Shown here: in pieces, positions 11,862-37,000 of the stretch
Position numbering within the stretch: position 1 is the stretch's first letter
Layout: each line of letters starts with the position of its first letter
Made by a program: the position numbers and the translations under genes
DNA from: Candidatus Thalassarchaeaceae archaeon
GTDB taxonomy: Archaea; Thermoplasmatota; Poseidoniia; Poseidoniales; Thalassarchaeaceae
Direction of reading: 5' to 3'
Assembly (NCBI GenBank): GCA_030747485.1
Contig: JASLKP010000005.1
Span: 6,006 to 70,005, forward strand
Length of the DNA: 64,000 nucleotides
Notes under the pieces: model-generated
What the model was told of the DNA's origin: nothing
The model's input: the letters and a program-made list of their open reading frames with translations, nothing else
Databases searched by the model: none

Positions 11862-13120
11862 CTCGCCGTGTTAGACTAGAGCGTGACACTCTCTGGCTTT
11901 CGGGAGCAGATATCGCAGCATTACTGGTTGGAATTACAGTACATGTCATCCTCACGCAAACGTATACAGATGGTGATTATGGACGCTGGGTACTATTATT
12001 GGACCTATACTATGTCTCTTCAACTTTGATTGATTTAGGATTACCTACCCTTATTGGTCGAGATTCTGAACGCATGGGGAAAATGGCACAAAACCTCGTA
12101 CATCGGACGTTGAGAATACAAATTCGTTTGACTTTACCAATCATTTTGATTGGAGGCGTGGTTGGTTGGTATTGGATCGGTGGATCGATTATTTGGTTGG
12201 TAGCAGCACTAATTTTAGCACTCTCTGCTGCTGTCCAAATCCTTGCATATGCTCACCGTTCTGCATTACGAGCACTCGGAGAGTCGAGACAAGAGGCATT
12301 GGTCCGCCTCGTTGACCGTGGGGCTACTGCAATCGGAATTGTTCTCGCCGCGTGGTTTTTTGGTGCACACCCAATTGCATTGTCATTAGCAACATTTGCG
12401 GGCCCACTAGGAGCGATTTTAATTGCTATCAATTTAGGTGAAAAGAAGTTAACTTCGATTACAAACATGGGAGAATCACTTGATTACGCCAATGATAATG
12501 TGAGAACATTACTCACGTTAGGATTGCCTTTCCTTCTAGCATCCATAGCATTAGTTCTGAATGTACGTGTAGAAAAATTAATGCTCGGAGTAATAGCAAC
12601 ACCAGAAGATGTTGAAGTGTTCCAAATTGCTTGGTTGGCATTCATCGCAGGTTATGCCCCAATTCTTTCGGTACGTGCAGTCATGCTATCTTGGTTTGGA
12701 GAGACGAGGCATGATTTAGAAATTCTTCAACATCGACAACAACGTGCACTCAAGATGATTTTCATTGTAACTGTGCCTGGATTAATCATTGGTTATACCC
12801 TTGGTCAAGCATCAATTGGTTGGGTTTTTCCAGATTATGCGATGGAAGCAAAACCAATTTTTCTCCTATTGTTAATTGCATGGGCTCTCGCTCTAAATGC
12901 TAGTGTACCAATCACAATCATTCAGGTGAGTGAAAAACCAATGTACTATGCCGCAGTACTTTGGTTGGGTATCATTTCTGATGCAATCATCTGTGTGTTG
13001 ATGATTCCGGATCAAGGGACAGAAGGTGCAGCAATAGGAGCAATAGTTGGTTCCGCAATAGTATTGTTCACAGCAATGATATTGAGCCGAAAACTCAACT
13101 TGAATTCAACGGCGATTTAA
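11858..13120 (+). CDS. Polysaccharide/oligosaccharide flippase (MOP/Wzx-like multi-TM protein)
   Basis: 420 aa with about 12-14 predicted TM helices, coupled by a 4-nt overlap to the upstream GT genes. Confidence 0.55.
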   Translation: MTRRVRLERDTLWLSGADIAALLVGITVHVILTQTYTDGDYGRWVLLLDLYYVSSTLIDLGLPTLIGRDSERMGKMAQNLVHRTLRIQIRLTLPIILIGGVVGWYWIGGSIIWLVAALILALSAAVQILAYAHRSALRALGESRQEALVRLVDRGATAIGIVLAAWFFGAHPIALSLATFAGPLGAILIAINLGEKKLTSITNMGESLDYANDNVRTLLTLGLPFLLASIALVLNVRVEKLMLGVIATPEDVEVFQIAWLAFIAGYAPILSVRAVMLSWFGETRHDLEILQHRQQRALKMIFIVTVPGLIIGYTLGQASIGWVFPDYAMEAKPIFLLLLIAWALALNASVPITIIQVSEKPMYYAAVLWLGIISDAIICVLMIPDQGTEGAAIGAIVGSAIVLFTAMILSRKLNLNSTAI

Positions 13121-13455
13121 TCATCTGAAGATTCTTCTGAGATTCCAAGCATTTCTTGTAATTCTCCACTTTGATACATCTCAAGTGCGAGGTCTGAGCC
13201 CCCAATTAATTCACCATTCACAAACACTTGGGGCATGGTCGGAAAATCAGACCATTCACAAACACTTGGAATTGCTCGGGAGTCCATGAGGACATTGACA
13301 CTGACAAATGGTATACCAATTGCTTTCAAGACCTGAGAGGCTCTATTTGAGAAACCACACTGTGGCATCTCAGGTGTTCCTTTCATGAAAAGTACAAGCT
13401 GATTGTTGTTGATGATTTCGTCTAATTCTGTAGGTGTCCAATTAAATTCACTCAT
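13117..13455 (-). CDS. Monothiol glutaredoxin (CGFS-type, Grx4/Grx5 family)
   Basis: LVLFMKGTPEMPQCGFS is the signature of monothiol Grx. Confidence 0.85.
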   Translation of the reverse strand: MSEFNWTPTELDEIINNNQLVLFMKGTPEMPQCGFSNRASQVLKAIGIPFVSVNVLMDSRAIPSVCEWSDFPTMPQVFVNGELIGGSDLALEMYQSGELQEMLGISEESSDD

Positions 13456-13796
13456 TCTATTTCCTCCTTAGGTCTGATACTGATGCCAACAAAATCTGCA
13501 TCACTGCGACGATTAGGGTGAGGATGGAAGACATCTCCATCATCTTGTAATGCCTGTTCTGGAGTAAGACATTTGAGATCTAATGCATGTACTTCATGTG
13601 GGATAAATGGTTTGAAGTGACCCAAGAGAATACGCTGGCGAGGTAAGGGCCTCATGCCCTCAAAAGTTGCACAAACAACTCGAACATGGAAATGGTCTTG
13701 CCCCCCAGTTAGGTCTACAATCTTAATTTCAATGGCATCAGGAACCGCCTTACGGACTTCAGCCTCCATCCACTCGATACTCGGCATAGTCATCAC
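13452..13796 (-). CDS. BolA family protein
   Basis: IEIKIVDLTGGQDHFHVRVVCATFEGM ... H is BolA-like, and it overlaps the downstream CGFS Grx gene by 4 nt. Confidence 0.7.
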   Translation of the reverse strand: MMTMPSIEWMEAEVRKAVPDAIEIKIVDLTGGQDHFHVRVVCATFEGMRPLPRQRILLGHFKPFIPHEVHALDLKCLTPEQALQDDGDVFHPHPNRRSDADFVGISIRPKEEIE

Positions 13797-13823
13797 TCAA
13801 TGTTCGATGGTTTTGAATCCTTG

Positions 13824-14504
13824 TTACTGTTGAAGTGCATTTTGAATCTCGCTAAGATTCTCTGCGATGGTTCCATTGTCATTGATTAGACCTGAGCCGA
13901 CAACGGCAATTTCAATCCCCCAATCAGCAACTTGTGCAATATTATGAGCCTTGATACCTCCGTCAATCATGAGTTTCGTTGGTCGACCTCCAGCAACAAT
14001 CTGAGCATCGATGGCCGCTCGGAATGTCCGTGTCTTTTCCTCCATCTCTGACATAAATGATTGGCCGCCCTTACCGGGGACGACACTCATCACAAGAATG
14101 AGGTCTAAATTGGGAAGATGGGGGAGAATGGCATCAGCGGGTGTTGCCGGATTCAATACAGCTCCAGCTTGACATCCACATGCATGTAATTTCTCGATGA
14201 GGGTTGACATATCATCTACTGCTTCAATATGAGCAATGACTAAGTTGACTCCTGCATCGACATATTGATTCCAATTCTCTTCTGCATTTGTTACCATCAA
14301 GTGACAATCCATGAAGACATCTGGGCCAATTCGATCGCGTATTGAACGGATGACTGCGGGTCCAAATGTGATGGTTCGATTCACGACCCAATTTCCATCC
14401 ATCACATCGAGATGAATCCAATCGATTCCAGCCGCAATAGCCTCATCAATCGTTGTACCGAGTTCACAAAAATCAGCGGTGAGGATGCTTGGGGTGATTA
14501 TCAC
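13824..14504 (-). CDS. rpe: Ribulose-phosphate 3-epimerase
   Basis: SILTADF ... HLDVMDGNWVVNRTITFGP ... DCHLMV motifs of Rpe. Confidence 0.85.
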   Translation of the reverse strand: MIITPSILTADFCELGTTIDEAIAAGIDWIHLDVMDGNWVVNRTITFGPAVIRSIRDRIGPDVFMDCHLMVTNAEENWNQYVDAGVNLVIAHIEAVDDMSTLIEKLHACGCQAGAVLNPATPADAILPHLPNLDLILVMSVVPGKGGQSFMSEMEEKTRTFRAAIDAQIVAGGRPTKLMIDGGIKAHNIAQVADWGIEIAVVGSGLINDNGTIAENLSEIQNALQQ

Positions 14505-14618
14505 AATGACCGCTCCGTACCGGGCGAGGAGAAGCCAGTTCTCAAGTCTTGACCTTCAAATAACTCGTACATCAGGTTGATAGAACGCCGAAACACGCCC
14601 AATGAAGCAGGTGATTGT

Positions 14619-14942
14619 ATGGCAGGTAATCTAGTGGAGGCTACAGATGCAGATTTTGAGCAAGTGACGACTGAGAATGAATGGGTCTTGGTCGATTTCT
14701 GGGCCCCTTGGTGTGGACCTTGCAAGATGATTGGGCCTGTTCTGGACCAAATTGCTGGTGAGCGCGAAAATCTCACTATTGCAAAAGTAAACACAGACAT
14801 GAATCCAGTCACGCCTGGAAGATTTGGAGTTCGAGGAATTCCATATCTCGTTCTATTCCATAATGGACAACCGATTGATACTAAGAGTGGAGCAATGCCA
14901 AAGCAAGGTTTCGATCAATGGTTAGATGCACATATGATTTGA
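14619..14942 (+). CDS. trxA: Thioredoxin
   Basis: WAPWCGPCK active site. The first ATG is at 14619; the track start at 14577 is TTG. Confidence 0.9.
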   Translation: MAGNLVEATDADFEQVTTENEWVLVDFWAPWCGPCKMIGPVLDQIAGERENLTIAKVNTDMNPVTPGRFGVRGIPYLVLFHNGQPIDTKSGAMPKQGFDQWLDAHMI

Positions 14943-16538
14943 TTACGGCTGCGCATTTTGTAAACGCTTTCTTCGAGCATCTTGCGGAGCACCTACCTCA
15001 CGCAATAAACGCTCTCTCAACGCTTCATGTAACCACATTCCATCTGATAATTCAAGAATTAATCCTCGTTCAATTAGAGCAGATGGTGGCGGTCCATCGT
15101 GTTCGCAAGCGGCTGCTAATATGGACCACTCAACGGGTCGTTCAGATACCGCAAGGACGGCTAACAATTCTCGTTCATCTTCAGGGAGAACATCAAGGAT
15201 TTCTTCATCGAGGAATCGTAGCCAATCACCGTGAGAAATTTCACCATACATCTCCATCAATTCAATTGCCAAGGGATGGCCACCAGTAACTTCGTGAACT
15301 TCTGTAGCGGTTGGTAATTCCTCTGCTGAAATATCTGAAAGCCAAGCATCTAAATCTTCTACATTGAGACCAGACAAGGCTAGTTCACTGACTCTGTCTC
15401 GAGTATGAACATCTCTTCGATCGTAGAATGTCAATGTGGTTCGACTGATTAACAAGAGTTGCAATGGAGAAGAGTCTGCCACTTGAAGCAGGGCGCCCAA
15501 CAAATCTCGTGCTTCTTCAGCAAGATGGTGTACGTCGTCTAATACCAACAGGAAATAAGGTGGGGCGGTCGACTCATCATCTATGAAGCGCTCACGTAAC
15601 ACAGTTGGATCTGTCAAATAAGACAAGAGTAATCTCCGATATGCATCGATATCTAACTTCGCACCGGGAGTAAGTGGCAATGTTTCCATGAGTTGATGAG
15701 GGTCATGAGCAGCATCAATGCCGACTCGATGTAAAAGCGAAGTCGCTAGACCAAGGGATGTATCCCATGGTTGACAGGGGTACCAACATACAGACAATTG
15801 CTCATCTGTGATTATTCGCTGTCGTAACCAATGAGCACCAAGGGTTGATTTCCCGATTCCTGCAATTCCGTGGAGAAGCATACAAGGTGTTCTAGAGATA
15901 ATCCACTCATCCAGAACTGAAATCTCTGTTTTTCGACCATGTACTTCACGAGTGAGGGGGGGTTCTGTATGATACGTCGCGTGAGCACCTGAACCAAGCG
16001 TGATTCTACCAGGTGCTGGCGTATCATCAGCACGTGACTGAATGAGGCCAAAGCGAATGTCTCCAAACGTTAGAACACCCTCGTGTTGTGCATGCATCAA
16101 TACCTGTAATAGGCTCAAATCCGCAGCCAATCGGTCGCTTGCTTGATTGGCAACAACCTCCAATAATTGGCCATTTGAATCTCGAATTAATACTTGAGTT
16201 AATCCAAGTTCACGCATTCGAGAATTGGCTTGAACTCTACCTTCTTCTGTAAGTTGCCATGTCTTCTGTCGTCGACTCTCTCCACGTACGGTTCGACTAT
16301 GCTCAGTAACCCACAAATTTCGTAATAATCCACGCATTGTTCGACTAACATTTGGAGGATGTAATGCACAAGCCTCAGCAATGCCCGGGCGTGTTACTGC
16401 GTGGCTAACCATGTAGAGATCTGCCTGATCATCTTGCTCCAATAAATGTAGTAAAATTCGGTCTTCGACCGCGATATGAACACGCAAGTCATTGCTCGGC
16501 ATTGGACCTGCCTTATACTCCGTCCTGTTGAACTTCAC
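14943..16538 (-). CDS. wHTH-fused STAND (NB-ARC-like) P-loop NTPase, putative signal-transducing regulator
   Basis: N-terminal winged-helix domain (RILLHLL ... ACALHPPNVSRTMRGL), Walker A GIAGIGKSTL, Walker B LLVLDDVHHL and a GxP motif TGGHPLAIELM typical of STAND NTPases. GTG start at 16538; ATG 16502 is an alternative. Confidence 0.6.
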   Translation of the reverse strand: MKFNRTEYKAGPMPSNDLRVHIAVEDRILLHLLEQDDQADLYMVSHAVTRPGIAEACALHPPNVSRTMRGLLRNLWVTEHSRTVRGESRRQKTWQLTEEGRVQANSRMRELGLTQVLIRDSNGQLLEVVANQASDRLAADLSLLQVLMHAQHEGVLTFGDIRFGLIQSRADDTPAPGRITLGSGAHATYHTEPPLTREVHGRKTEISVLDEWIISRTPCMLLHGIAGIGKSTLGAHWLRQRIITDEQLSVCWYPCQPWDTSLGLATSLLHRVGIDAAHDPHQLMETLPLTPGAKLDIDAYRRLLLSYLTDPTVLRERFIDDESTAPPYFLLVLDDVHHLAEEARDLLGALLQVADSSPLQLLLISRTTLTFYDRRDVHTRDRVSELALSGLNVEDLDAWLSDISAEELPTATEVHEVTGGHPLAIELMEMYGEISHGDWLRFLDEEILDVLPEDERELLAVLAVSERPVEWSILAAACEHDGPPPSALIERGLILELSDGMWLHEALRERLLREVGAPQDARRKRLQNAQP

Positions 16539-16609
16539 GCCACCATGTTTCAGCCATTTTCGGCCTTTTTCTCGCGTGCGCGCGTGATGCAGAACGACCG
16601 CAATCCCTT

Positions 16610-19600
16610 ATGCAGATGAATACAGCCGCCCCCATGGTCCAGAACCTGCGAGTCCAATCATTGGCTTCGACTCGGGCCATTTTACTGGCGGGTTTGATGA
16701 TTTTTAGCACGACCATCCTGCCCGTCGTCAGTGCGTACGACACAGATAGTGATGGTATTGATGATTCAGTAGATGATTGTCCAGTAGCGGCAGGAAATAG
16801 TTCGGTTGATCGTGTCGGTTGTCCTGACAGAGATGGCGATGGGACCAGTGACAAGAATGATCCCTGGACTATTCAAGGAGGTGGGTTTTCTGAAGAAGCA
16901 CATCAATCGAGTAACGATGACTACTATGCTGTCTTCTTCAATTACGATGGAAGTCAATATCTAACCTCAGCAGAGAATGGATGGATGCGAATTTGGGATA
17001 CGAGCACTCGACAGAATCTCAGATCAGTACAAACTGACGGGATTTTTGATGTCGGGTGGTCGCCAGATGGGGCGTACGTCGCTGCAGTCACTGACAATGA
17101 TGAATTGAGAGTGTACCACGCTTCAAACATGTCTGTCTTATTCACCGCAAGCACAGATGTGGGTAGTGGTGACCAACCCAATGAATTAGAATTCAGTCCT
17201 GACGGGACAATGGTTGCTGTCGTCATCGGAAGATCTGGGAATTCCGGAACGAATGGTGAAGTCCAAATTTACAATGCGATGACCGGGGTAGAAATGACTT
17301 CGTTTAATCCTGGTTCAGCAGATCGATTTAACTCAGTTGATTGGAGTCCTGATGGGAATCGTATTTTGATTGGTGGACGTGAGGATGTATGGATTTACAA
17401 CACCGGTAGTTGGGGCTTCAACAGTAGCGTCAATACGAATCGAGGTACCAACAATGGTGTTGAATGGTCACCAGATGGAAACTCGTTTGCGACCTGTGAA
17501 GCATGGGAAAGTAGTGGTGCCAGAGTCAGGATGTATGAAGTAGCAACCATGCAACAAGTGTGGTCGTATTCAACTTCAACATCATGTAACACACTTACAT
17601 TTTCACCGGATTCAACCCAAATTGGGGCTTCAATGACCTATTATCAGTCAGATGGAGCGAGTGTTAGAATTTTCAATGCAGATACTGGAAGTATCATAGA
17701 TACAGTTTCAGGGCCGAGACCCGGTGGCTGTACTAGTGGCGGTGGCGGAAACAATTGTGGTTCAATCTACGGTGTGGATTGGCACCCCAATGGAATGTAC
17801 ATCATAAGCGCTCATGGACGAGATGATGAGGGCATATACCACTGGATTGTCGACCCTGATATCGACAATGATGGAGTACTCAATGAAGACGATGCATTCC
17901 CTGAAGATGGAACTCAGTGGGATGACACTGATGGTGATGGTTATGGTGATAATCCAGCTCCTGCCACGGAGCCAGATGCCTGTGTGACCATTTTTGGTAC
18001 ATCTAACATGGACAGATACGGTTGCCCTGATGATGATGGCGATGGATGGTCAAACGATGGCGATGCATTTCCCTCTGATCCCTACCAATGGTCTGATGCA
18101 GATGGTGATGGTTATCCTTCAAATCTCGACGATCCGCGTGATCCAAATCCATACGGACATCTAGATGCCTTCGACAACAATCCAACTCAATGGGCTGATT
18201 CGGATGGAGATGGCTATGGAGATAATTTTGCCAACGCATCATGGGAAAGCATTCGACCCGTAGATTGGCCTGGACAATTAATGTCGATGACACCGATCGA
18301 GATGGTTGATATCGACACATTCCCGCTGAATCCCGAACAATGGAATGATACGGATGGTGACTGGGTTGGTGATGAACCATTCACAAGTCGTTCAGATGGA
18401 TGTCCCGATGCATGGGGTGATTCCATCTGGGACCGAATCGGTTGCCCTGATAGTGATGGTGATGGATACTCTGACCCTGGAAACGGCTACCCTGGAGAAG
18501 GTTTAGCAAGTCCAATTGGTGATGCCGATGCATTCGTCGATGACCCTAGCCAATGGCACGACTCTGATGGAGATGGTTTTGGAGACAATACTTCTGGCTC
18601 GCAAGGTGATGCATGTCCTGGCCAACCAGGTACCAGTTGGTGGGCCATCGAATGGGATTATGTCAATGAGACCTATTTCGATAAGCAATGGTTTGGTTGT
18701 GAAGACAACGATGGGGACGGATATGCAAACAGTGGAGAAGCCTTCCCAAACGACCCAACTCAATGGCAAGATACTGATGGTGATGGTGTCAACAGAAACA
18801 GTGTAGCATCATCCTGTGGAGATAATCCTGAAGGCAATAATCCTGATTTATTCCCGTTGGATGGGACTCAATGCACCGACCGTGATGGAGATGGTTACGG
18901 TGATTTTGCAAGTGGACCAAATGGTGACTGGTTCCCAGATGATCCGACTCAATGGAAAGACAGTGATGGTGATGGATACGGCGACAATGCTGATGGGACA
19001 AACGCTGATGTTTGTCCCTTCGTAGCAGGTACCATCAATACGGCTGAAGCAAGAGGTTGCCCAGACAGTGATAATGATGGAACCCCTGACCCCCAAGATG
19101 CCTTCCCAAACAATCCCTTAGAGGATAGCGATTCGGATGGTGATGGATTTGGTGATGCGTTTGAGGATGATTGTATCCTAACACCAGGTGCCTCAAACAT
19201 GGGAGGGACGTTTGGTTGTCCAGATTCAGATGGTGATTATTGGGCCGATTCCATCGACATATTCCCTGATGACGGAACCCAATGGGAAGACTCGGATGGA
19301 GATGGATATGGAGATAATTACACATACACAAATGTTACTGGTCACTCAACATCTGCTGATGGTTACATTTGGGGATGCGATGTTGATCCCGGCCTGATAA
19401 TGTCAAGAATTCAAAATGGTGATGCCTTCCCAGAGGATGCCACTCAATGGAGTGATACCGATGGAGATGGTCATGGTGATAATTACGGTGAAGCATTGAA
19501 TCTCACCACTCGACTAGAGTGCTGGCCGGGAGAATTTGTGGATAATGCCAGAGATGCTGATGCTTTCCCTCTACGTTACACACAATGGAAAGATGCTGAC

Positions 19601-20140
19601 CGAGATGGATATGGTGACAACAGCATTGGAGGCGCTTTCCAAGGTGACCTCTGCAAGAGCGAACAGGGATTCTCATATCTCGATAAATATGGTTGTTTAG
19701 ACTCGGATGGAGATGGTTGGTCCGACGTTGGAGATGCTTGTCCATACGATCCCAATTTCCATTTGGTATCAGAACAATGCAAAATTACTGAACCGGATTC
19801 TGGGCAAAGTGGAGATTCGGAATCCTCTGGTATGGTCATGTACATTATTGGCGGTTTAGTCGCCTTCCTTCTCATGCTCATCTTTGTAGCTCTTGTCGCT
19901 AAACAGATGGGGGCACGGAAGAGAATTGATGAAATTCGTGAACTTCAAGCACACGATGCAGTCATGATTGAAGAAGAAGAACAAAGACGTCAGAAATGGA
20001 TTGATTATTATTTGGCACAAGGTGATATTGAGAAAGCAAAGGAACTCGGCTATGTTGAGAAAGCTGAATGGCAACTTCATCAAGAAAAGACCGAAGCAGA
20101 GGCTGCAGCGTTACCCAATATGGACGACCTATTCAGTTAG
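16610..20140 (+). CDS. Giant surface protein: signal peptide, WD40-like beta-propeller, about 25 thrombospondin-type-3 Ca-binding repeats, C-terminal TM anchor and cytoplasmic coiled-coil tail
   Basis: Signal peptide (LLAGLMIFSTTILPVVSA), repeated (W/F)SPDG propeller blades, many DxDxDGxxDxxD motifs, a TM segment (IIGGLVAFLLMLIFVALV) and a charged tail. Confidence 0.7.
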   Translation: MQMNTAAPMVQNLRVQSLASTRAILLAGLMIFSTTILPVVSAYDTDSDGIDDSVDDCPVAAGNSSVDRVGCPDRDGDGTSDKNDPWTIQGGGFSEEAHQSSNDDYYAVFFNYDGSQYLTSAENGWMRIWDTSTRQNLRSVQTDGIFDVGWSPDGAYVAAVTDNDELRVYHASNMSVLFTASTDVGSGDQPNELEFSPDGTMVAVVIGRSGNSGTNGEVQIYNAMTGVEMTSFNPGSADRFNSVDWSPDGNRILIGGREDVWIYNTGSWGFNSSVNTNRGTNNGVEWSPDGNSFATCEAWESSGARVRMYEVATMQQVWSYSTSTSCNTLTFSPDSTQIGASMTYYQSDGASVRIFNADTGSIIDTVSGPRPGGCTSGGGGNNCGSIYGVDWHPNGMYIISAHGRDDEGIYHWIVDPDIDNDGVLNEDDAFPEDGTQWDDTDGDGYGDNPAPATEPDACVTIFGTSNMDRYGCPDDDGDGWSNDGDAFPSDPYQWSDADGDGYPSNLDDPRDPNPYGHLDAFDNNPTQWADSDGDGYGDNFANASWESIRPVDWPGQLMSMTPIEMVDIDTFPLNPEQWNDTDGDWVGDEPFTSRSDGCPDAWGDSIWDRIGCPDSDGDGYSDPGNGYPGEGLASPIGDADAFVDDPSQWHDSDGDGFGDNTSGSQGDACPGQPGTSWWAIEWDYVNETYFDKQWFGCEDNDGDGYANSGEAFPNDPTQWQDTDGDGVNRNSVASSCGDNPEGNNPDLFPLDGTQCTDRDGDGYGDFASGPNGDWFPDDPTQWKDSDGDGYGDNADGTNADVCPFVAGTINTAEARGCPDSDNDGTPDPQDAFPNNPLEDSDSDGDGFGDAFEDDCILTPGASNMGGTFGCPDSDGDYWADSIDIFPDDGTQWEDSDGDGYGDNYTYTNVTGHSTSADGYIWGCDVDPGLIMSRIQNGDAFPEDATQWSDTDGDGHGDNYGEALNLTTRLECWPGEFVDNARDADAFPLRYTQWKDADRDGYGDNSIGGAFQGDLCKSEQGFSYLDKYGCLDSDGDGWSDVGDACPYDPNFHLVSEQCKITEPDSGQSGDSESSGMVMYIIGGLVAFLLMLIFVALVAKQMGARKRIDEIRELQAHDAVMIEEEEQRRQKWIDYYLAQGDIEKAKELGYVEKAEWQLHQEKTEAEAAALPNMDDLFS
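17850..19750 (+). repeat. Tandem coding repeats (TSP3-like DxDGDGxxD calcium-binding units) inside the surface-protein gene
   Basis: Recurring gatggtgatgg / gatggagatgg nucleotide motifs and DGDGYGDN peptide motifs. They generate spurious His-rich ORFs on the opposite strand. Confidence 0.7.
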
Positions 20141-20892
20141 GCAGCCAAATCATCATCAAACCGATTGAAGGGTAGCGCATCGAAAGTTTCGATATTCGGA
20201 GAATTGAGTGAAATATTGTGCGTCAGTGCTTCTTCAATTGTCACCCAATCTGGAGTTGAACCATCAATCCAATCGTAACGATGGCCAGGAATCAATCTCC
20301 AATCACTTGGAAGTGATTCCAATACGCTTCTTGCGTTTCGTAAACTTCGCCACTGAGCAGCGGGGTCGCTGCCAGGTAAATCTACGCGTCCTGAACGCAT
20401 GGTGAATAACAAATCACCAGCCACATAGACCCCATGTCCGTGAAATGTCACATGACCAGGGGCATGTCCAGGTGAATGGATGACTGAAAGAGAAATGTTT
20501 CCTGCAGTCCAATCCACAGATTCATCAGGTAAATGTTTCCAAACGTGTGTGAAATCAGTTCGACGGAAAATGATTCGACCAAGAATACTGGGGCTCACTG
20601 AATCCTCATGACCCCATACTTCGATTTCAGGGTAGACTTTTCGAATTTGAGCGACACCATGTGTATGATCTCGATGAGTATGTGTCAACAGAATATGAGA
20701 GGGTGTAATCTCTTCTTTTTCCAATGCAGAAAGCCATCCCTTACCATCCCACGGATCGACGATAATTGCAACATTATTTTCACGATTAATGAATGCAATA
20801 TTCATATTGGCAAAAGGCCCCATTTGAGCAATCCAAATTTCGACACCATCGTGTGAAATTGAGACTTCAAAATCTCCCTTTGCTAGGACCAT
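20137..20892 (-). CDS. MBL-fold metallo-hydrolase (glyoxalase II/hydroxyacylglutathione hydrolase-like)
   Basis: LTHTHRDHTHG (HxHxDH) zinc-binding motif, 251 aa. Confidence 0.75.
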   Translation of the reverse strand: MVLAKGDFEVSISHDGVEIWIAQMGPFANMNIAFINRENNVAIIVDPWDGKGWLSALEKEEITPSHILLTHTHRDHTHGVAQIRKVYPEIEVWGHEDSVSPSILGRIIFRRTDFTHVWKHLPDESVDWTAGNISLSVIHSPGHAPGHVTFHGHGVYVAGDLLFTMRSGRVDLPGSDPAAQWRSLRNARSVLESLPSDWRLIPGHRYDWIDGSTPDWVTIEEALTHNISLNSPNIETFDALPFNRFDDDLAA

Positions 20893-21007
20893 AGTTGGGC
20901 CAAGACAGGGGGCCGAATAGATATTTGTGGCAACATTGGCCCCCCTTAGGGGGTGCCAATGGGTTCAAACGGGAGTGGTGCATTCCGAAATTACTGGGGG
21001 ACAGCGT

Positions 21008-23638
21008 ATGCGAGGTGAATTGAGTGGCCGCGCGATTGTACCAATGCTACTCATTGGAATGCTTGTACTTGTTCCATTTTCATCTGTAAGTGGTGAAATC
21101 TCTTCAAATGGATTGGAATTAGTCATCGAAATTGATGATCAAAATGGTGCGCTCTATCACACAAATGAGGCCCCACTTGAATTGACTGTGAAAATACAAA
21201 ATCACGGAGATGTCAGTCGAGAAGTGACATACAATCCTGCTTGTCCATTCAATTTAGTCATACATTCTGACAGTTGGTCGTATGACCTCGATGAAGACAG
21301 AATCTGCCCTACACAAGAGCGTGCAATCACCATCCAACCAGGTCAAACTCGAGTCATTTCTACATTGAATTGGGATTGGGCTGATGCACCAAGTGGCACA
21401 CTGATTCTTGAATTTGAACAACCAGAATCATCACTTGCTACAATTTCAACTGTTGAATATCATTCAATCATTGGAATGCCTGAACATTTAGAATTACAGG
21501 CAGTGTTAGGTGAAACCATTGGTGAACAGATCGGACACACTGATTCAATGCCAGCCATGTTCCACTTGAAATTGGTCAACACAGGTGACGAAGTAGTCGA
21601 GGTGCCTTTTGATGAATCATGTCATATCCTGATGACGATTGATGAACTGGTTCGTTCACTCACAAAGGTTGGGTGTGGGGGTGGTATCCTTGATGCTGGA
21701 GAAAGTGTTTCCCTCGGATGGACAAGTTGGAACTTCGACAATGTCGACGATGGTATGCACTCTATTGCATTCACAATGACCGGTGTTGAAGATGTAAGCA
21801 CAACAGTAGACACAATGTACACTCATAATCCATTCCCATCTCGACAGACGAACCTATTACCTAGCGTTAGTGTTGAGCTTGATGAGGAACTGAAGTGGCA
21901 ATTTAATGTAGAGAATGTTGAAGAGATTCCTGCAAAACTTGTCTTTGACAGTTTATGTATCACAGAGATGCATGTCATTTCACCCGAGGGTGGTATCGTA
22001 TACGATTCACGCACTGAACGTAATTGTCTATCCTCTGGAAGTCAACAACAAATCAAATCAGGTACAATTCATACATTGGAAAGCAATGTTTGGAATCTAC
22101 AAGATAGTAACGATTGTGAAATTAATGATGGATTGCACTTGTTGGTCATTACACAACCCGATTACAATCTAGTCTCGACGCAATCATTCGATTATGTTGG
22201 AGAGGGAACTGGTGATGAATGTCGAGCAGTTGCACAGGATTCATCGAACATTCGCTTTGCTGTCAACGATTTACAAATTCTAGATGCTGACTCTGTTGAT
22301 GAACGAATGTTATTTGATATACAACTTGAAAATCTTGGATTGGAGGATTTTGATATATACTGGGCCACTGATTGTTCTCTTGAAATTACAGTGAGTCAAC
22401 ATCAACATATCTACCGAACATGGAATCATGGTTGTGGAAACTCTGGACAAATACTCACTCTATCACCAAGCCAATCAGTTGTTTGGAGGGGGATAGAAGT
22501 CGCGTTTGTGGATGAGGGAGTAGCTCTTGAGAATGGCACATGGATCGTCACAATACGTTCAACATCTTCTCCAAATTTCTTCGTTGAGGCTGCGCATACA
22601 TACGATGGTCCTCACATTACTACTACCGATGTTGGAGACATTACAGAAGTCATTGAAATTGTGGATGAGAATCCAACACCTGAAGAAATTCCAAGTAATT
22701 TCATCCTTGAAGGGAAATGGCATTATGTTACTCAAACCAATCAGGGTTGTTGGCTCCTCACTGATTCAAGTGGAAGCGAACGCTCCTTTGTTGCACACAT
22801 GCAAGATGGACGATGGGCACCAATTCCGGGACTAACTGGAACCTACGATGTAGAGGAGACACCTGCTGCGGGAGACTGTGCTGCATGGACTGGCTTTGCA
22901 ATTCTTTCAACCATTGAGGAAGATGTACCAGCATCCATCATTGAAGAGCCTGTTGTCACTTCAAAACCAGTAGAGAGCCCTACTGAAGTTGTACTAGAGA
23001 GTGCACCCACTGTTGCTGCCGCTGTCGCGACCACCTCTCTGTCAATCATGGTCCTGTTATACATCACCAATACAGAATGGATTCGAATTTCTGCCCTTCA
23101 ATTGGGTATCGGTTTAGTTGGAATGGTACGCAAGACTCGAGAACATGATGGAGAATATCAACGGGGACGTATCATGGGTTACCTGACTGCGAATCCAGGT
23201 GTCCATTTCCGGGCATTGTTGGGAGCATTGAACATGAGTAATGGGCAATTAACTCATCATCTGAAGAGTCTTCAGGGTGAAGAAAGAGTATGGCGACGAA
23301 AAGATGGACGTCTTGTGCGATTCTATCCAGCGAGTATCCAACCATCCACTGAAGAGGATGATTTGCCCGTACCTCTACTCACACCAGATCCAAACAGTCT
23401 ACAAGGCAAGATTCTGAGACTCCTCGATGCAACTGAAAACGACATTGTAAATCTCAGTCAAAAAGAGTTAGCTGTTCGCCTAGAAGCAAGTCAACAATTG
23501 ATTAGTCACCATCTACGGACATTGGAAAAGTTCGGCCTCATTGAACGTGAAAAGGTCGGCATGAGATATCGGTATCAACTCACCCGAGAAGCAATCTTCT
23601 TGGTAAACAACAGTGAGTTCGAAGTTGACGGTGAATGA
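21008..23638 (+). CDS. Membrane-tethered transcription regulator: signal-anchor, four BsuPI-like extracellular beta-sandwich repeats, TM helix, two cytoplasmic winged-HTH domains
   Basis: Four internal repeats, each with a conserved Cys pair. A TM helix follows, then MarR/ArsR-like wHTH segments (YLTANPGVHFRALLGALNMSNGQLTHHLKSL and ILRLLDATENDIVNLSQKELAVRLEASQQLISHHLRTLEKFGLIE). The track start 20927 is in the same frame; 21008 gives a clean signal anchor. Confidence 0.55.
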   Translation: MRGELSGRAIVPMLLIGMLVLVPFSSVSGEISSNGLELVIEIDDQNGALYHTNEAPLELTVKIQNHGDVSREVTYNPACPFNLVIHSDSWSYDLDEDRICPTQERAITIQPGQTRVISTLNWDWADAPSGTLILEFEQPESSLATISTVEYHSIIGMPEHLELQAVLGETIGEQIGHTDSMPAMFHLKLVNTGDEVVEVPFDESCHILMTIDELVRSLTKVGCGGGILDAGESVSLGWTSWNFDNVDDGMHSIAFTMTGVEDVSTTVDTMYTHNPFPSRQTNLLPSVSVELDEELKWQFNVENVEEIPAKLVFDSLCITEMHVISPEGGIVYDSRTERNCLSSGSQQQIKSGTIHTLESNVWNLQDSNDCEINDGLHLLVITQPDYNLVSTQSFDYVGEGTGDECRAVAQDSSNIRFAVNDLQILDADSVDERMLFDIQLENLGLEDFDIYWATDCSLEITVSQHQHIYRTWNHGCGNSGQILTLSPSQSVVWRGIEVAFVDEGVALENGTWIVTIRSTSSPNFFVEAAHTYDGPHITTTDVGDITEVIEIVDENPTPEEIPSNFILEGKWHYVTQTNQGCWLLTDSSGSERSFVAHMQDGRWAPIPGLTGTYDVEETPAAGDCAAWTGFAILSTIEEDVPASIIEEPVVTSKPVESPTEVVLESAPTVAAAVATTSLSIMVLLYITNTEWIRISALQLGIGLVGMVRKTREHDGEYQRGRIMGYLTANPGVHFRALLGALNMSNGQLTHHLKSLQGEERVWRRKDGRLVRFYPASIQPSTEEDDLPVPLLTPDPNSLQGKILRLLDATENDIVNLSQKELAVRLEASQQLISHHLRTLEKFGLIEREKVGMRYRYQLTREAIFLVNNSEFEVDGE

Positions 23639-34036: not shown

Positions 34037-37000
34037 TCAATCCTGAGCCAATTGAAGTTGATGGCGCGTCCCCAGCCAGGCCACAATACCGAGTTCCACA
34101 CCTAGTGCGAGAAGCATGAGGAGTAACATCTCAGAATCGAGGACATTGTCCTGTAAGATGAGCAACCAAACAGCAATTGAAAGAACCAGATCAAATGCAC
34201 CCATTACCCGCATTCCTCTTCTAAGTTGTAAGATGCCCCCCACCCATGTAACAAGTGAAAGAGCAAGGATTGAGACAACCATCCAACCATTCCAACCTGT
34301 CACTGCCAATACGCCAATCGGGAGTAGGATGTGAGCATTCCAAAGCCATGCAGTTGTCCATTTTGGTAGGTTGTACAATATTGTGTATAAATGTGCTAAC
34401 ACCATGACGAGGGCTGTCAACAAAATGGTCCATGAAATGTAGGTCATGTAGGTGCTTGAATAATCAAACCACGGACTGAAAGCAAGTAATGATGCTAATC
34501 CCGCATTGATTGCCATTGCAGCACCTGCGGGTTGCTTCCAGTCAAAGGAACGGCGAAGACAGAGTAACGATGCAAGAAGGCCGGCAGGGCCTGCTGATAC
34601 AAGGACAATCATGAATGCAAAACCACCTCTTCCTGCTGCACCACGATGGTCAGGCATTCCTTTTGTCCGACGGAATCCCTCAATCCATTCCCATACGCAT
34701 ACAAGCATGAAAAGTACTGCTTCGTGGAATAACCATGGAACCATCCAATCGACCATCGAGATATTGGAATCTAGAGGATTTACAGACATTGGAAATGGAA
34801 CGGCGTTGATGAATAACGCACCAAATACACGGGTTAGTAACAGCACCATTACGACCCATTCAACAGCACTAGGAATTCGCCATGCTAAATCATCACGCCC
34901 GTATAGTGAATTCATCGCCAAACCCAACAATGCAAAGGTGAGAACGAGCAGGTCCAACTGAGCATTCAGGGAACCATGTATTCCAAAATGTCCCACGAGG
35001 TAAATGAGGCCTAAGCCACACATTGTCACAGCAAAGGGCAATTCTATGCCATTAAAATCGGGTAATCGAAGGTGTTGGATTCTCGCGCGCTCTCGTGAAA
35101 TCCATGTCAACGCGAGTGCAAATAATGTGACGACCAACATCAAACCAGGATTTGATGACGAATCAAAATATGCAAACCAACATGCTGCAAATGTAGTCAC
35201 TGCAATAAATGAGATTACAATGATTGGTCTATGGTGGATATCTCCAACCAAGAGATCCATCTCTTCGTTACCATATGCACCTGCCTTGCGTCGTCTTTTC
35301 CTTTGTTTTTCCATTAATGATAACAGTTCTGAATCTGCCATTTTCATACTACCTTTAGAAACTGCTTGTGAAATTGATTTTGCCAATTCACCAGTCGGGT
35401 CTGAAGCAGCCTTGGCGGCGAGAGTTTCATCAGAAAAATGATACAAATTCGAACCCTGTTGCAACTCTAGAGGAACTTCATCAGCATCTTGTGAAACTAC
35501 TAGAGCAGATTCTGAAGTAGAAACTGTTTCTGGAATCAGCGATGTGCCACGAGTTGGGGCTTCAAGCAATGGACTCTGTTGAGCGGATACATTGGCAAGA
35601 TTACCCGATTCAAGCGCTGCTGCAATTTGCTGTTTTCGTGCAATTGAAATTAATCTCGCTTCTCTTTTACCAACCTGTTTCAGTTCAGCACGGAGTTCAC
35701 CTTGAGCGGCCAGATACAATGCTGTTCCAACAAACAGAGCCAATGCGATGATTGATTGGCTCCAATGCATATCATCTCCTGATGTAGCCCAAATCAATAG
35801 AGTCAAGAGAAGTACAATTGTAATTGCTGGCTGGAGAATTTTCTCTAATTTACTGGCAATCGGGAGATATACTGCGACGATGCAAATACTAGCTAACAGA
35901 ATCACACCTCCCGTCATACTACGCGTAAGAGGTTCTGGATCAATGAGAGGGAAGGAGATGTGTCGATCCAATGAGAAGAGCATGATTTGTACACTAAGTA
36001 GCCCCATTGTTAGCGATAATAACTCAGAGTTTGGTCCGTCTTCTCCACGTGTCAGAAGAATGATGACTGAAGCCGCTGTAAGTATAGTAATCCAAGCAAC
36101 ATGTACTCCAAAGTTCCATTGGAATACAATCATGACGATTGCTAAAGAAATGAGAATCAACCGTGGATTGTCCTGATGTCGGCCCTGTGCTTCTGCTGTA
36201 ATATGGACGATTGCCAAAACAGAGAATCCAATGATTGAAAGCGAACCAATATTATGGCTGACATCGACAAACATCAACCACACAATGAGACCTGATATTA
36301 GGCCTAAGTTCCACAATCTCATTAGACCTGAATCCCTAAGTCGAGCTGTCAATTCAGATGCTCCAATCAGTTTTCCTGCGATGTTCACACCAGTTTCTCC
36401 TAATTTCATATTCACTGGATATTGTAACAACGCCGCGATTGTCAAATATATCGCAACAAAGGAAGGGTCCAACATAATCACATCCCATCCGCTAACATCA
36501 ATTTCTCTAGCATCTGAAAAGTTATCCAATGAAGATGTCCAAAATCGATATACTAACATCCACAACCAGGGTGCGAGAACAGTAACACCTGCAATACTTG
36601 GAGAGTCACGATGAAGGGCAAGAGCTGCCGTTGAAATATGAAGTATGACAAATGAAATGAGGAGTAACTTGCCTTCATCACCGCCAATATTAGTTGACTC
36701 TGCAGGGATTAGAATAGTTAACAATAGCATGAGGACCAAACTTCCAATCCACAATACACGATCGGTGACATTTGATTGGTGTTTTAGTAAGATACCAATG
36801 GTCACCAATGCCGACAATGCCGCAAAGGATTCATATCCAGAAAATGGCAATTGAGAATCACCGATGATGGCCTTCGAGATTTCTTTTGACTCCAACATAA
36901 CCAGTAATATCAAGAGAATCGGGAGAGCACTCAATAGGGGTTTGAGGACTTCTTTCTCATCTACTCCACGGACGACCAAGTACGAGCCACCATAGACTGC

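What the first reader, a model, noticed from the sequence alone, without database searches (positions are those of the whole stretch)
14943..20140. Divergent pair: wHTH-STAND NTPase regulator and a 1176-aa propeller/TSP3-repeat surface protein
The minus-strand gene encodes a winged-helix domain fused to an NB-ARC/STAND-type NTPase (Walker A GIAGIGKSTL, Walker B LLVLDDVHHL, GxP motif GGHPLAIELM) with no large sensor repeat domain. It is transcribed divergently, sharing a 71-bp promoter region, from a giant secreted protein that has a beta-propeller, about 25 thrombospondin-type-3 Ca-binding repeats, a TM anchor and a cytoplasmic tail. STAND NTPases act as signal-integrating transcription activators (MalT/AfsR) or immune sensors. 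Sitting beside a large adhesin-like surface protein, this one may control expression of a cell-surface interaction module.
Basis: partly seen in the sequence, partly recalled or inferred. Interest (0 to 1): 0.6.

Follow-up and report, generated by a model that had tools for sequence, protein, structure and literature searches.

The report
Sensor-less STAND regulator beside surface receptor
A DNA-binding ATP-switch protein that has lost its usual sensor domain sits back-to-back with a large calcium-binding surface receptor gene in every marine Group II archaeon examined, so it probably controls that gene, but the link is not proven.

Summary
The minus-strand gene (14943..16502; the real start is M13 of the 531-aa ORF) encodes a MarR-like winged helix, a small beta-beta-alpha-alpha module, an invariant linker, and a complete STAND core (NBD, helical domain, WHD with the conserved His). 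It ends right after the WHD. Its nearest solved relatives are PH0952 and MalT, not Orc1/Cdc6. Distant Thermoplasmatota relatives (26-34% identity) share the same N-terminus and core but add about 400 aa of TPR sensor. The window protein is therefore a sensor-less, Poseidoniales-specific offshoot of the PH0952-like archaeal regulators.

The plus-strand gene encodes a signal peptide, a WD40 propeller, about 19-21 DxDxDG calcium loops, a TM helix, and a conserved ~75-aa cytoplasmic tail. Length and repeat number are nearly fixed across the order, which fits a receptor or envelope protein better than a variable adhesin.

The divergent junction is intact in 63/63 loci. The other flank of the STAND gene is broken in 14/72. 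The ~131-bp spacer carries an order-wide conserved element next to the surface gene's TATA box.

Regulation of the surface gene is plausible (~0.5) but unproven. This is a new variant of a known kind.

The parts
14943..16502 (-). wHTH-STAND gene (519 aa from M13; the maximal ORF reaches 16538)
   Evidence: ORF. The start is fixed by homologue N-termini. AAA_16 is above its Pfam cut-off.
16203..16481 (-). Winged helix-turn-helix, aa 20-112 (recognition region HPPNVSR and wing RRQKTWQL, both invariant)
   Evidence: AF2 pLDDT is 85-97 here. Foldseek matches MepR, ZitR, AspA and IdeR.
16068..16202 (-). Small beta-beta-alpha-alpha module, aa 113-157, shared with distant TPR-bearing relatives
   Evidence: AF2 secondary structure; alignment A3.
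15945..16067 (-). Linker N-terminal to the NBD, aa 158-198. Predicted disordered, yet it carries invariant GDIRFG, PG and H.TY motifs. Poseidoniales-specific.
   Evidence: pLDDT is below 50 at aa 174-187, but the columns are invariant.
15423..15944 (-). Nucleotide-binding domain, aa 199-372. Contains Walker A (K230), Walker B (D334, D335), sensor-1 R366, and a clade-specific ~28-aa insertion at about aa 272-300.
15231..15422 (-). Helical domain, aa 373-436, with the GxP motif TGGHPLA
   Evidence: Aligned to the PH0952 helical domain; invariant G420, H421, P422, L423.
14991..15230 (-). STAND winged-helix domain, aa 437-516, with invariant WLHEA (His504, MHD-like). The protein ends 15 aa later, so there is no arm and no sensor.
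16526..16538 (-). Conserved element GTGAAGTTCAACA (order-wide form GAA-N3-TTSAA), centred about 30 nt upstream of the STAND start. Candidate promoter or auto-operator.
   Evidence: It is unique in the window at 0 mismatches.
16573..16584 (.). Alternating CG palindromic tract (CGCGTGCGCGCG), conserved only in the closer Thalassarchaeaceae (MGIIb) loci
   Evidence: Absent from the 48 other aligned loci, which are mostly MGIIa plus four deep-branching Thalassarchaeaceae.
16590..16611 (+). Order-wide conserved CA-N5-ACCRYAA-N2-CCTTWT. The TATA-like box is centred about 24 nt upstream of ATG 16634, which predicts a leaderless mRNA. The abutting upstream element is a candidate operator.
   Evidence: The strict motif is at this promoter in 45 loci and occurs only 5 times elsewhere in about 2 Mb scanned.
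16610..20140 (+). Surface protein gene (1176-aa ORF; probable start at M9 = 16634)
16634..16738 (+). Signal peptide (MVQNLRV...ILPVVSA|YD)
   Evidence: Hydropathy; conserved in orthologues.
16739..16894 (+). Two N-terminal Cys-bracketed DxDxDG calcium loops, the most conserved part of the protein
   Evidence: Weak match to an OmpA-family chain (5wtl) and to bacterial anchor families.
16895..17854 (+). WD40-type beta-propeller, aa 96-415
   Evidence: Pfam WD40 47.5 bits against 27; Beta-prop_THOC3 E 5e-23. PkwA and WDR5 are the best solved sequence matches.
17855..19789 (+). Acidic stalk, aa 416-1060, with 17 strict DxDxDG loops in two alternating repeat types (FPxDPxQWxDxDGDGYGDN and C-x13-CPDxDGDG)
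   Evidence: Loop number is nearly constant in orthologues.
19820..19918 (+). Transmembrane helix, aa 1071-1103
19919..20140 (+). Conserved cytoplasmic tail of 73 aa (EEExRRxxWIxxYxxxGxxxKAxELGW/Y ... WQ/K ... LP.M.DL) plus the stop codon
   Evidence: Majority-residue fraction is 0.61, against 0.585 for the propeller and 0.36 for the juxtamembrane linker.

Best explanation
The minus-strand gene encodes a transcription factor of the STAND class. A MarR-like winged helix is the effector. It is fused to a nucleotide-binding oligomerisation core that switches between a closed ADP form and an open ATP form that multimerises.

The protein belongs to the PH0952-like lineage of archaeal wHTH-NOD-arm-TPR regulators but has lost the arm and the TPR sensor. 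In exchange it has gained an invariant pre-NBD linker and an NBD insertion.

It is present in every Poseidoniales locus examined, in both families. It most likely binds the conserved element that abuts the TATA box of the divergently transcribed gene, and so tunes transcription of a leaderless mRNA. It may also bind its own promoter-proximal element.

The target encodes a type I membrane protein: an outward WD40 propeller on a rigid calcium-loaded stalk, one TM helix, and a conserved cytoplasmic tail.

Shown here: domain identities, loss of the sensor, order-wide orthology, the invariant divergent junction, and the conserved spacer elements.

Inferred: DNA binding at that element, ATP-dependent oligomerisation, activation versus repression, and the nature of the input. 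The input may act through the linker and insertion, or through a partner protein in trans, as MalK and MalY do for MalT.
For: STAND class:
- AAA_16 is above its cut-off.
- PH0952 is the best sequence match among solved structures, covering the helical domain and WHD.
- Foldseek ranks PH0952 at 9e-11, MalT at 2e-9, then CED-4, Avs3 and Apaf-1, all ahead of ORC/Cdc6.
- Walker A, Walker B (DD), sensor-1 Arg, GxP and the WHD His are invariant even in relatives at 25% identity.

Winged helix.

Sensor loss:
- Full-length relatives at 26-34% identity are 780-1000 aa and carry TPR_12 and TPR_MalT after the same N-terminus and NOD.
- The two with organism names are from Thermoplasmatota or Thermoplasmata MAGs.

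Order-wide orthology:
- 526 database proteins and 445 genome stretches match.
- 79 of the 80 loci kept are titled as Poseidoniales or broader euryarchaeal MAGs. L045 is titled Yoonia sp. All 80 share the same synteny.
- Mean p-distance is 0.32, against 0.34 for thioredoxin.

Link to the neighbour:
- The divergent junction is intact in 63/63 loci. The STAND|trx junction is rearranged in 14/72.
- The CA-N5-ACCRYAA-N2-CCTTWT block at the surface gene's promoter is conserved across both families.
- The strict form occurs only 5 times elsewhere in about 2 Mb. Its upstream half (CA-N5-ACCRYAA) occurs elsewhere about as often as I estimate for chance, so it is not a general promoter consensus.
- Four of 9 distant relatives sit next to large surface-protein genes and one sits next to a pilin gene.

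Precedent for control without a sensor domain: MalY inhibits MalT by binding an oligomerisation interface, and a pre-NBD loop governs MalT autoinhibition (PMC10427625). Autoinhibition in PH0952 depends on the arm and sensor (PMC6468293).
Against: - No expression, binding or oligomerisation data exist.
- Much of the surrounding block (LeuRS, trx, rpe, grx) is also syntenic across the order, so adjacency may be inherited rather than selected.
- The mirror-tree signal between the pair (partial r 0.77 and 0.68 over all loci) falls to control level within MGIIa. There it is 0.46 and 0.33, against 0.32 and 0.34 for MBL and bolA.
- The conserved promoter block could be bound by TFB/TBP alone or by another factor. 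One candidate is the membrane-tethered double-wHTH protein at 20927..23638, which is almost as constantly linked to the surface gene.
- Contexts of distant relatives are mixed. One lies next to two-component genes, and three have no large surface-protein or pilin gene beside them. No background frequency of surface-protein genes was measured.
- The STAND-proximal and surface-gene-proximal elements do not share an obvious common half-site.
Confidence: 0.5

Rival explanations
1. Conserved synteny without a regulatory link. The wHTH-STAND is a core regulator with targets elsewhere in the genome, or only an autoregulator. It has stayed next to the surface-protein gene because this chromosomal block is stable in Poseidoniales.
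For: The block LeuRS / TM-wHTH / (MBL) / surface gene / STAND / trx / rpe is shared by both families. Housekeeping-level conservation suggests a general role. There is no pair-specific co-evolution within MGIIa. The spacer motifs occur nowhere else in the window, so no regulon could be defined either way.
Against: The STAND/surface junction is the only one that never breaks: 63/63, against 58/72 for the other flank, and MBL is lost in a MGIIa subclade. A gene-specific conserved element lies next to the surface gene's TATA box.
Confidence: 0.3
2. The surface gene is controlled mainly by the membrane-tethered double winged-helix protein (20927..23638). That protein could sense the exterior directly. 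The STAND would then serve another purpose.
For: The 903-aa protein has an extracellular BsuPI-like region, TM segments, and HVO_0163_N plus ArsR/MarR winged helices. It flanks the surface gene in almost all loci with enough sequence. HVO_0163_N-type proteins also lie near 3 of 9 distant STAND relatives.
Against: It is not divergent from the surface gene; it lies 3' of it, beyond MBL. It is absent from L066 although the STAND-surface pair persists there. This reading does not exclude a role for the STAND.
Confidence: 0.15
3. Immune STAND (Avs or NLR-like) that senses an invader and triggers defence.
For: STAND cores are common in defence systems, and Avs3 and Avs4 appear among the structural matches.
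Against: There is no PADLOC hit. There is no nuclease, protease, TIR or other killing domain; the only effector is a winged helix. There is no sensor repeat domain. The gene was found in all 80 Poseidoniales loci examined, syntenic and slowly evolving, which is the opposite of defence-gene behaviour.
Confidence: 0.03
4. Orc1/Cdc6-type initiator marking a replication origin.
For: ORC and Cdc6 chains appear in the Foldseek list at E 6e-8 and weaker, as expected for any AAA+-like core followed by a winged helix.
Against: STAND structures rank above them. The only significant sequence match among solved structures (E 3e-10) is a STAND; the other seven hits are RNA helicases at E above 0.1. No Cdc6 or ORC Pfam family scores. 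The STAND-specific GxP motif and WHD His are invariant. The DNA-binding winged helix is N-terminal. Relatives carry TPR sensors.
Confidence: 0.02

Closest known systems
PH0952-like archaeal STAND regulators (Pyrococcus horikoshii PH0952, PDB 6MFV; PMC6468293)
   Same: An N-terminal winged-helix effector followed by NBD, helical domain and WHD. PH0952 is the best sequence and structure match among solved proteins. Distant Thermoplasmatota relatives of the window protein have the full wHTH-NOD-TPR layout.
   Different: The window protein ends after the WHD, so the arm and TPR sensor are missing. Those domains mediate PH0952 autoinhibition. It has a clade-specific invariant pre-NBD linker and a ~28-aa NBD insertion. 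Sequence identity to full-length relatives is only 25-34%. The target genes of PH0952 itself are unknown.
MalT (E. coli maltose activator; PDB 8BOB; PMC10427625)
   Same: A STAND transcription factor. It is the second-best structural match. It provides the concept of ATP-dependent multimerisation that enables DNA binding. It also shows inhibition in trans (MalY, MalK) and a regulatory loop N-terminal to the NBD.
   Different: MalT has a C-terminal LuxR-type HTH and a large sensor domain that binds maltotriose. Here the HTH is N-terminal and MarR-like, and there is no sensor.
AfsR and large SARP regulators (Streptomyces)
   Same: An N-terminal winged-helix DNA-binding effector followed by a NOD (PMC10936776, listed).
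   Different: AfsR has an OmpR-type SARP domain plus a TPR domain and acts on bacterial RNA polymerase. No homology beyond the NOD was tested here.
Thrombospondin type-3 and bacterial TSP3 calcium-binding repeats. 'Thrombospondin genes' were already noted as widespread in Poseidoniales by Rinke et al. 2019 (PMC6461757).
   Same: Tandem acidic DxDxDG loops, many bracketed by Cys pairs. Rinke et al. list such genes as adhesion factors.
   Different: Pfam TSP_3 scores 14.9 bits against a cut-off of 25. The protein also has a WD40 propeller, a TM anchor and a conserved tail, and its repeat number is nearly fixed.
Integrin alpha subunits (analogy only, from general knowledge)
   Same: Gross layout: an N-terminal beta-propeller with calcium sites, a long stalk, a single TM helix, and a short conserved cytoplasmic tail.
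   Different: No homology was shown. The propeller is WD40-type, not FG-GAP, and the stalk is built of DxDxDG loops, not Ig-like domains.

Membership tests
STAND NTPases | P-loop NBD with Walker A GxxxxGK[ST] and Walker B hhhhDD/E | tested here: met
   GIAGIGKST and LLVLDD are present. The key residues (G224, G227, G229, K230, T232, D334, D335) are invariant in 21 homologues, and the G..G.GK and DD columns are also kept in relatives at 25% identity. AAA_16 scores 46.6 bits against 32.6.
STAND NTPases | Helical domain with a GxP motif after the NBD | tested here: met
   In TGGHPLA, residues G420, H421, P422 and L423 are invariant. The segment aligns to the PH0952 helical domain.
STAND NTPases | STAND-specific winged-helix domain with a conserved His (MHD-like) after the helical domain | tested here: met
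   WLHEA with His504 is invariant, including in distant relatives (H492 in A3 numbering). AF2 predicts a helix / beta-hairpin / helix arrangement at 439-512. The region aligns to the PH0952 WHD.
STAND NTPases | Nucleotide-dependent closed-to-open switch and oligomerisation | not testable with these tools
   Needs biochemistry (SEC-MALS, ATPase assays).
STAND NTPases | C-terminal arm plus repeat sensor domain (usual, but not universal) | tested here: not met
   The protein ends 15 aa after the WHD. Most of the 120 listed homologues are 505-560 aa (range 464-589). Relatives carry TPRs.
PH0952-like clade | N-terminal winged helix + NOD, with closest similarity to PH0952 | tested here: met
   6mfv is the top hit by phmmer (3e-10) and by Foldseek (9e-11). 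The winged helix is confirmed.
PH0952-like clade | Arm (HD2) and TPR sensor | tested here: not met
   Absent.
MalT family | C-terminal LuxR-type HTH and a MalT-type sensor (TPR_MalT) | tested here: not met
   No GerE/LuxR or TPR_MalT hit. The HTH is N-terminal.
Orc1/Cdc6 | AAA+ core with a lid, a C-terminal winged helix that binds origin DNA, and Cdc6 Pfam families | tested here: not met
   No Cdc6 or ORC family scores at E<=0.1. STAND structures rank higher.
Antiviral STAND (Avs) and other defence systems | Match to defence-system models, an effector killing domain, and patchy distribution | tested here: not met
   No PADLOC hit. The effector is a winged helix. The gene is found in every Poseidoniales locus examined.
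Thrombospondin type-3 repeat (PF02412) | Score above the Pfam gathering threshold | tested here: not met
   14.9 bits against 25, in one stretch. There are 19 DxDxDG motifs by pattern.
WD40 beta-propeller | WD40 repeats above the Pfam threshold and similarity to solved WD40 propellers | tested here: met
   PF00400 scores 47.5 bits against 27. PkwA matches at E 1.9e-14 and WDR5 at about 1e-10. The blade number was not determined.

The most novel reading that the evidence does not exclude
The pair may be an outside-in signalling module. The surface protein would act as a receptor: the propeller binds a ligand or particle, on a calcium-stiffened stalk. Its conserved ~75-aa cytoplasmic tail would replace the lost TPR sensor by docking on the STAND's clade-specific linker or NBD insertion. 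That docking would hold or release the STAND and so couple surface contact to ATP-dependent oligomerisation and transcription. This would be a receptor-gated STAND transcription factor in archaea.
Probability: 0.1. Interest if true: 0.8.

Novelty: new variant of a known kind. Interest (0 to 1): 0.45.

Why it matters
Poseidoniales are described as the most abundant planktonic archaea in ocean surface waters (PMC6461757) and remain uncultured. Almost nothing is known about how they regulate genes.

This finding points to a single regulator that appears in every locus examined and is biochemically tractable. It also gives a defined ~131-bp candidate target region and a conserved envelope protein that may mediate particle or cell contact.

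For STAND biology, it is a natural minimal protein: effector plus NOD, with no arm and no sensor. That raises the question of how the ADP/ATP switch is gated when the canonical autoinhibitory domains are missing.

The thrombospondin-like surface genes were already reported for this order. The regulator, its loss of the sensor, and its invariant pairing were not found in the literature searched.

Tried and rejected
(1) Mirror-tree co-evolution between the STAND and parts of the surface protein. Partial correlations are high over all loci (0.77 for the stalk, 0.68 for TM+tail). Within MGIIa they fall to the level of the controls, so one deep branch drives the signal. Not used as evidence.

(2) Search for the cytoplasmic tail on other ectodomains. 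Only short fragments were found, consistent with C-terminal pieces of orthologues, so there is no sign of a wider receptor family. The sensitivity of this search is limited.

(3) Search for the spacer motifs elsewhere in the window, to define a regulon. None were found beyond chance.

(4) Rfam scan of 14000..21000. Nothing found.

(7) Contexts of 9 distant relatives. They are suggestive: 4 lie beside large surface proteins and 1 beside a pilin. No background rate was measured, so they count as a hint only.

(8) The sigma-70 promoter scanner was not used, because the organism is an archaeon.


Full report
**Observation.** Base composition here is unremarkable, with GC 0.46-0.47 against 0.43-0.49 elsewhere in the window. 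Alignment with homologues moves both starts inward. All relatives of the NTPase begin at the Met or Val that corresponds to M13 (16502). The only start-codon column conserved among close relatives of the surface protein corresponds to M9 (16634). The shared non-coding region is therefore about 131 bp, not 71 bp.

**The NTPase: family assignment.**
- Pfam gives AAA_16 at 46.6 bits (cut-off 32.6) and AAA_22 just above its threshold. NACHT, NB-ARC and nSTAND6 score below threshold. No Cdc6 or ORC family appears.
- The only significant sequence match among solved structures is PH0952 from Pyrococcus horikoshii (6MFV, E 3e-10). The alignment runs through the helical and winged-helix domains to within about 12 residues of the C-terminus.
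- An AlphaFold model built on 21 sequences (mean pLDDT 79.7) shows these parts in order:
  - a winged helix at aa 24-112;
  - a small beta-beta-alpha-alpha module at 115-153;
  - a linker whose centre (aa 174-187) has pLDDT below 50;
  - the NBD at about 200-370;
  - the helical domain at about 377-431;
  - the WHD at 439-512;
  - one terminal helix.
- Foldseek against the PDB ranks PH0952 (9e-11), MalT (2e-9), CED-4, Avs3 and Apaf-1 ahead of ORC/Cdc6 chains (6e-8 and weaker).
- A separate model of aa 13-200 (pLDDT 80.9) matches MarR-family MepR and ZitR, PadR-like AspA, and DtxR/IdeR. The N-terminal DNA-binding winged helix is therefore supported.
- The STAND hallmarks are invariant, or have invariant key residues, in Poseidoniales homologues. 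They are Walker A, Walker B (DD), sensor-1 Arg366, TGGHPLA, and the WHD motif WLHEA with His504. Their core residues are retained in relatives at about 25% identity.
- PADLOC has no match.

**The NTPase: where it sits in evolution.**
- The word-indexed search returned 526 proteins. The 120 listed are 58-95% identical and 464-589 aa long (most 505-560), and those with names come from Poseidoniales, Thalassarchaeaceae or broader archaeal MAGs.
- An exhaustive HMMER search of 1.84 billion cluster representatives found only one full-length cluster above 50% identity. The next full-length matches are 26-34% identical and mostly 780-1000 aa.
- Those longer proteins align over the whole window protein: winged helix, small module and NOD. 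They then continue into TPR_12 and TPR_MalT repeats, and several pass the NB-ARC threshold. The two that carry organism names come from Thermoplasmatota or Thermoplasmata MAGs.
- According to its structure paper, PH0952 is a putative transcription factor with an N-terminal ArsR-like winged helix, NOD, arm and TPR sensor. [quoted passage not shown]
- The window protein is thus a sensor-less and arm-less derivative of that lineage.
- Compared with the TPR-bearing relatives, it has two clade-specific, highly conserved features:
  - the pre-NBD linker (GDIRFG ... PG ... H.TY);
  - a ~28-residue insertion in the NBD (AHDPxxLMETLPLxPGAxxDIDxxRR).
- In MalT, a loop N-terminal to the NBD governs autoinhibition and activation, and MalY represses by binding an oligomerisation interface (PMC10427625). 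These are precedents for control that does not need a built-in sensor. That the linker and insertion serve this purpose here is inference.

**The surface protein.**
- Hydropathy and motif analysis show the following layout:
  - a signal peptide ending VVSA|YD;
  - two Cys-bracketed DxDxDG loops;
  - a 320-aa propeller region;
  - a 645-aa stalk that is 20% Asp, with 17 further strict DxDxDG loops in two alternating repeat types;
  - a TM helix at 1071-1103;
  - a 73-aa charged tail.
- Pfam supports a WD40 propeller (47.5 bits against 27). TSP_3 does not reach threshold (14.9 against 25). PkwA and WDR5 are the best solved sequence matches.
- Across the 50 uninterrupted orthologues recovered from genome loci, length is 1136-1185 aa and the loop count is 16-21 (median 19). 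Every one has the C-terminal TM helix and a tail of 72-88 aa.
- The tail is about as conserved as the propeller (majority-residue fraction 0.61 against 0.585). The extracellular juxtamembrane linker is not (0.36). The tail carries a recognisable motif, EEExRRxxWIxxYxxxGxxxKAxELGW ... PQWKQ ... IPTMxxLD.
- Orthologues of the propeller were found only in Poseidoniales. Beyond them the matches are generic WD40 proteins at 22-31% identity; the few with organism names are mostly bacterial.
- This is not the behaviour of a repeat-variable adhesin. It looks like a core receptor or envelope component.
- Rinke et al. (2019) already noted widespread 'thrombospondin' genes in the order and read them as adhesion factors (PMC6461757).

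**Is the pairing meaningful?**
- A scan of one genome per species found 445 stretches that encode a relative of the NTPase. Of the 80 loci kept, 79 are titled as Poseidoniales or broader euryarchaeal MAGs, and one is titled Yoonia sp..
- Much of the neighbourhood is syntenic in both families: LeuRS, a 903-aa membrane-tethered double winged-helix protein, a metallo-beta-lactamase, the surface gene, the STAND, thioredoxin, ribulose-phosphate epimerase, BolA and glutaredoxin. Adjacency by itself therefore says little.
- Comparing junctions is more informative:
  - The surface-gene|STAND divergent junction is intact in 63 of 63 loci with enough flank.
  - The STAND|thioredoxin junction is rearranged in 14 of 72. 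Examples are an inserted methionine synthase in L002, and a DNA methylase with other genes in L012.
  - The beta-lactamase is missing from a MGIIa subclade.
- The spacer carries conserved blocks:
  - Anchored alignments from both families give CA-N5-ACCRYAA-N2-CCTT(T/A)T, with the ATG about 24 nt downstream of the centre of the T-rich box. That is the geometry expected for an archaeal TATA box driving a leaderless mRNA.
  - The strict motif is at this promoter in 45 loci and occurs only 5 times elsewhere in about 2 Mb of scanned sequence.
  - Its upstream half (CA-N5-ACCRYAA) occurs elsewhere about 33 times, against about 31 that I estimate for chance. It is therefore not a general promoter consensus of these genomes.
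  - A second conserved block (GAA-N3-TTSAA) is centred about 30 nt upstream of the STAND start.
  - A CG-alternating palindrome between the two blocks is conserved only in the closer Thalassarchaeaceae loci.
- Among nine distant relatives whose contigs could be read, the contexts were as follows:
  - four lie beside large surface proteins (PKD, FG-GAP/CARDB, Peptidase_C25/CARDB, TSP3_bac);
  - one lies beside a pilin gene;
  - one lies beside two-component genes;
  - three have no large surface-protein or pilin gene beside them.
  This is suggestive, but no background rate was measured.
- A mirror-tree test looked striking over all loci but fell to control levels within MGIIa. It adds nothing.

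**Mechanism proposed.**
- Shown: a winged-helix effector fused to an intact STAND switch; loss of the canonical autoinhibitory arm and sensor; presence in every Poseidoniales locus examined, in both families; an invariant divergent arrangement with a conserved, gene-specific promoter element.
- Inferred: the protein multimerises in the ATP state. This clusters its winged helices on the element next to the surface gene's TATA box and changes recruitment of TBP/TFB. It may also autoregulate.
- The input is unknown. Candidates are the cell's nucleotide state, a ligand for the small module or linker, or a partner protein.
- The boldest reading not excluded is that the partner is the conserved cytoplasmic tail of the neighbouring receptor-like protein. 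I put this at about 0.1.

**Rivals.**
- Inherited synteny with no regulatory link: about 0.3.
- Control of the surface gene mainly by the 903-aa membrane-tethered winged-helix protein: about 0.15, and not exclusive of a role for the STAND.
- Immune STAND: about 0.03.
- Orc1/Cdc6: about 0.02.

**Comparison and novelty.** Functionally the protein resembles MalT and PH0952-type STAND transcription factors. On membership, it meets the STAND core criteria and is nearest to PH0952. It fails the arm/sensor feature of that clade and all the MalT-specific features. I found no paper that describes this Poseidoniales protein or the pairing. The thrombospondin-like genes themselves are already known. I rate it a new variant of a known kind, of moderate interest.

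Noticed in passing
window 20927..23638 (+): A 903-aa protein with an N-terminal hydrophobic segment, about 640 aa of apparently extracellular sequence (BsuPI-like domain), TM segments, and two cytoplasmic winged helices (HVO_0163_N and ArsR/MarR type). It looks like a membrane-tethered transcription factor. It flanks the surface gene in nearly all loci. HVO_0163_N-type proteins also lie near 3 of 9 distant STAND relatives (L082 16122-18359, L081 15726-16247, L089 1276-1998).
   Followed up: partly
L045 (CAXRJJ010000018.1): The record is titled 'MAG: Yoonia sp.' (a bacterium), but it carries the Poseidoniales STAND / surface-gene locus at 61% identity. The contig is probably misbinned.
   Followed up: no
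L002 9651-13370; L012 6643-13470: The junction downstream of the STAND gene is a rearrangement hotspot in Thalassarchaeaceae and in some MGIIa. L002 has a B12-dependent methionine synthase inserted there. L012 has a DNA methylase, a TSP_3-bearing esterase-like protein, and an S15 peptidase.
   Followed up: partly
window 34037..38215 (-): A 1392-aa ORF with no Pfam family at E<=1e-5. It is a second very large protein of unknown nature in the window.
   Followed up: no
L086 7104-7844 and 3846-6932; L091 1150-2277 and 4772-8074: Two distant wHTH-STAND-TPR relatives share a context. Each has a DUF4350 gene immediately upstream and a 1000-1100-aa Peptidase_C25/CARDB/He_PIG surface protein adjacent. 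This may be a conserved module of its own.
   Followed up: no
window 20137..20892 (-): A metallo-beta-lactamase-fold gene overlaps the stop codon of the surface gene by 4 bp (convergent). It is absent from a MGIIa subclade (e.g. L021, L024, L027, L031), where the membrane-tethered regulator then lies closer to the surface gene.
   Followed up: partly
window 16573..16584: An alternating CG tract (CGCGTGCGCGCG; CACGCGCGAGCGCGCG in relatives) sits between the two promoters. It is conserved in the closer Thalassarchaeaceae loci and is not seen in the alignment of the other loci (mostly MGIIa). It could be a lineage-specific operator or a structure-prone element.
   Followed up: partly
window 13117..14942: A cluster of redox and iron-sulfur helper genes (monothiol glutaredoxin-like, BolA-like, ribulose-phosphate 3-epimerase, thioredoxin) abuts the 3' end of the STAND gene. 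The thioredoxin stop codon directly adjoins the STAND stop codon (0-bp gap, convergent).
   Followed up: no
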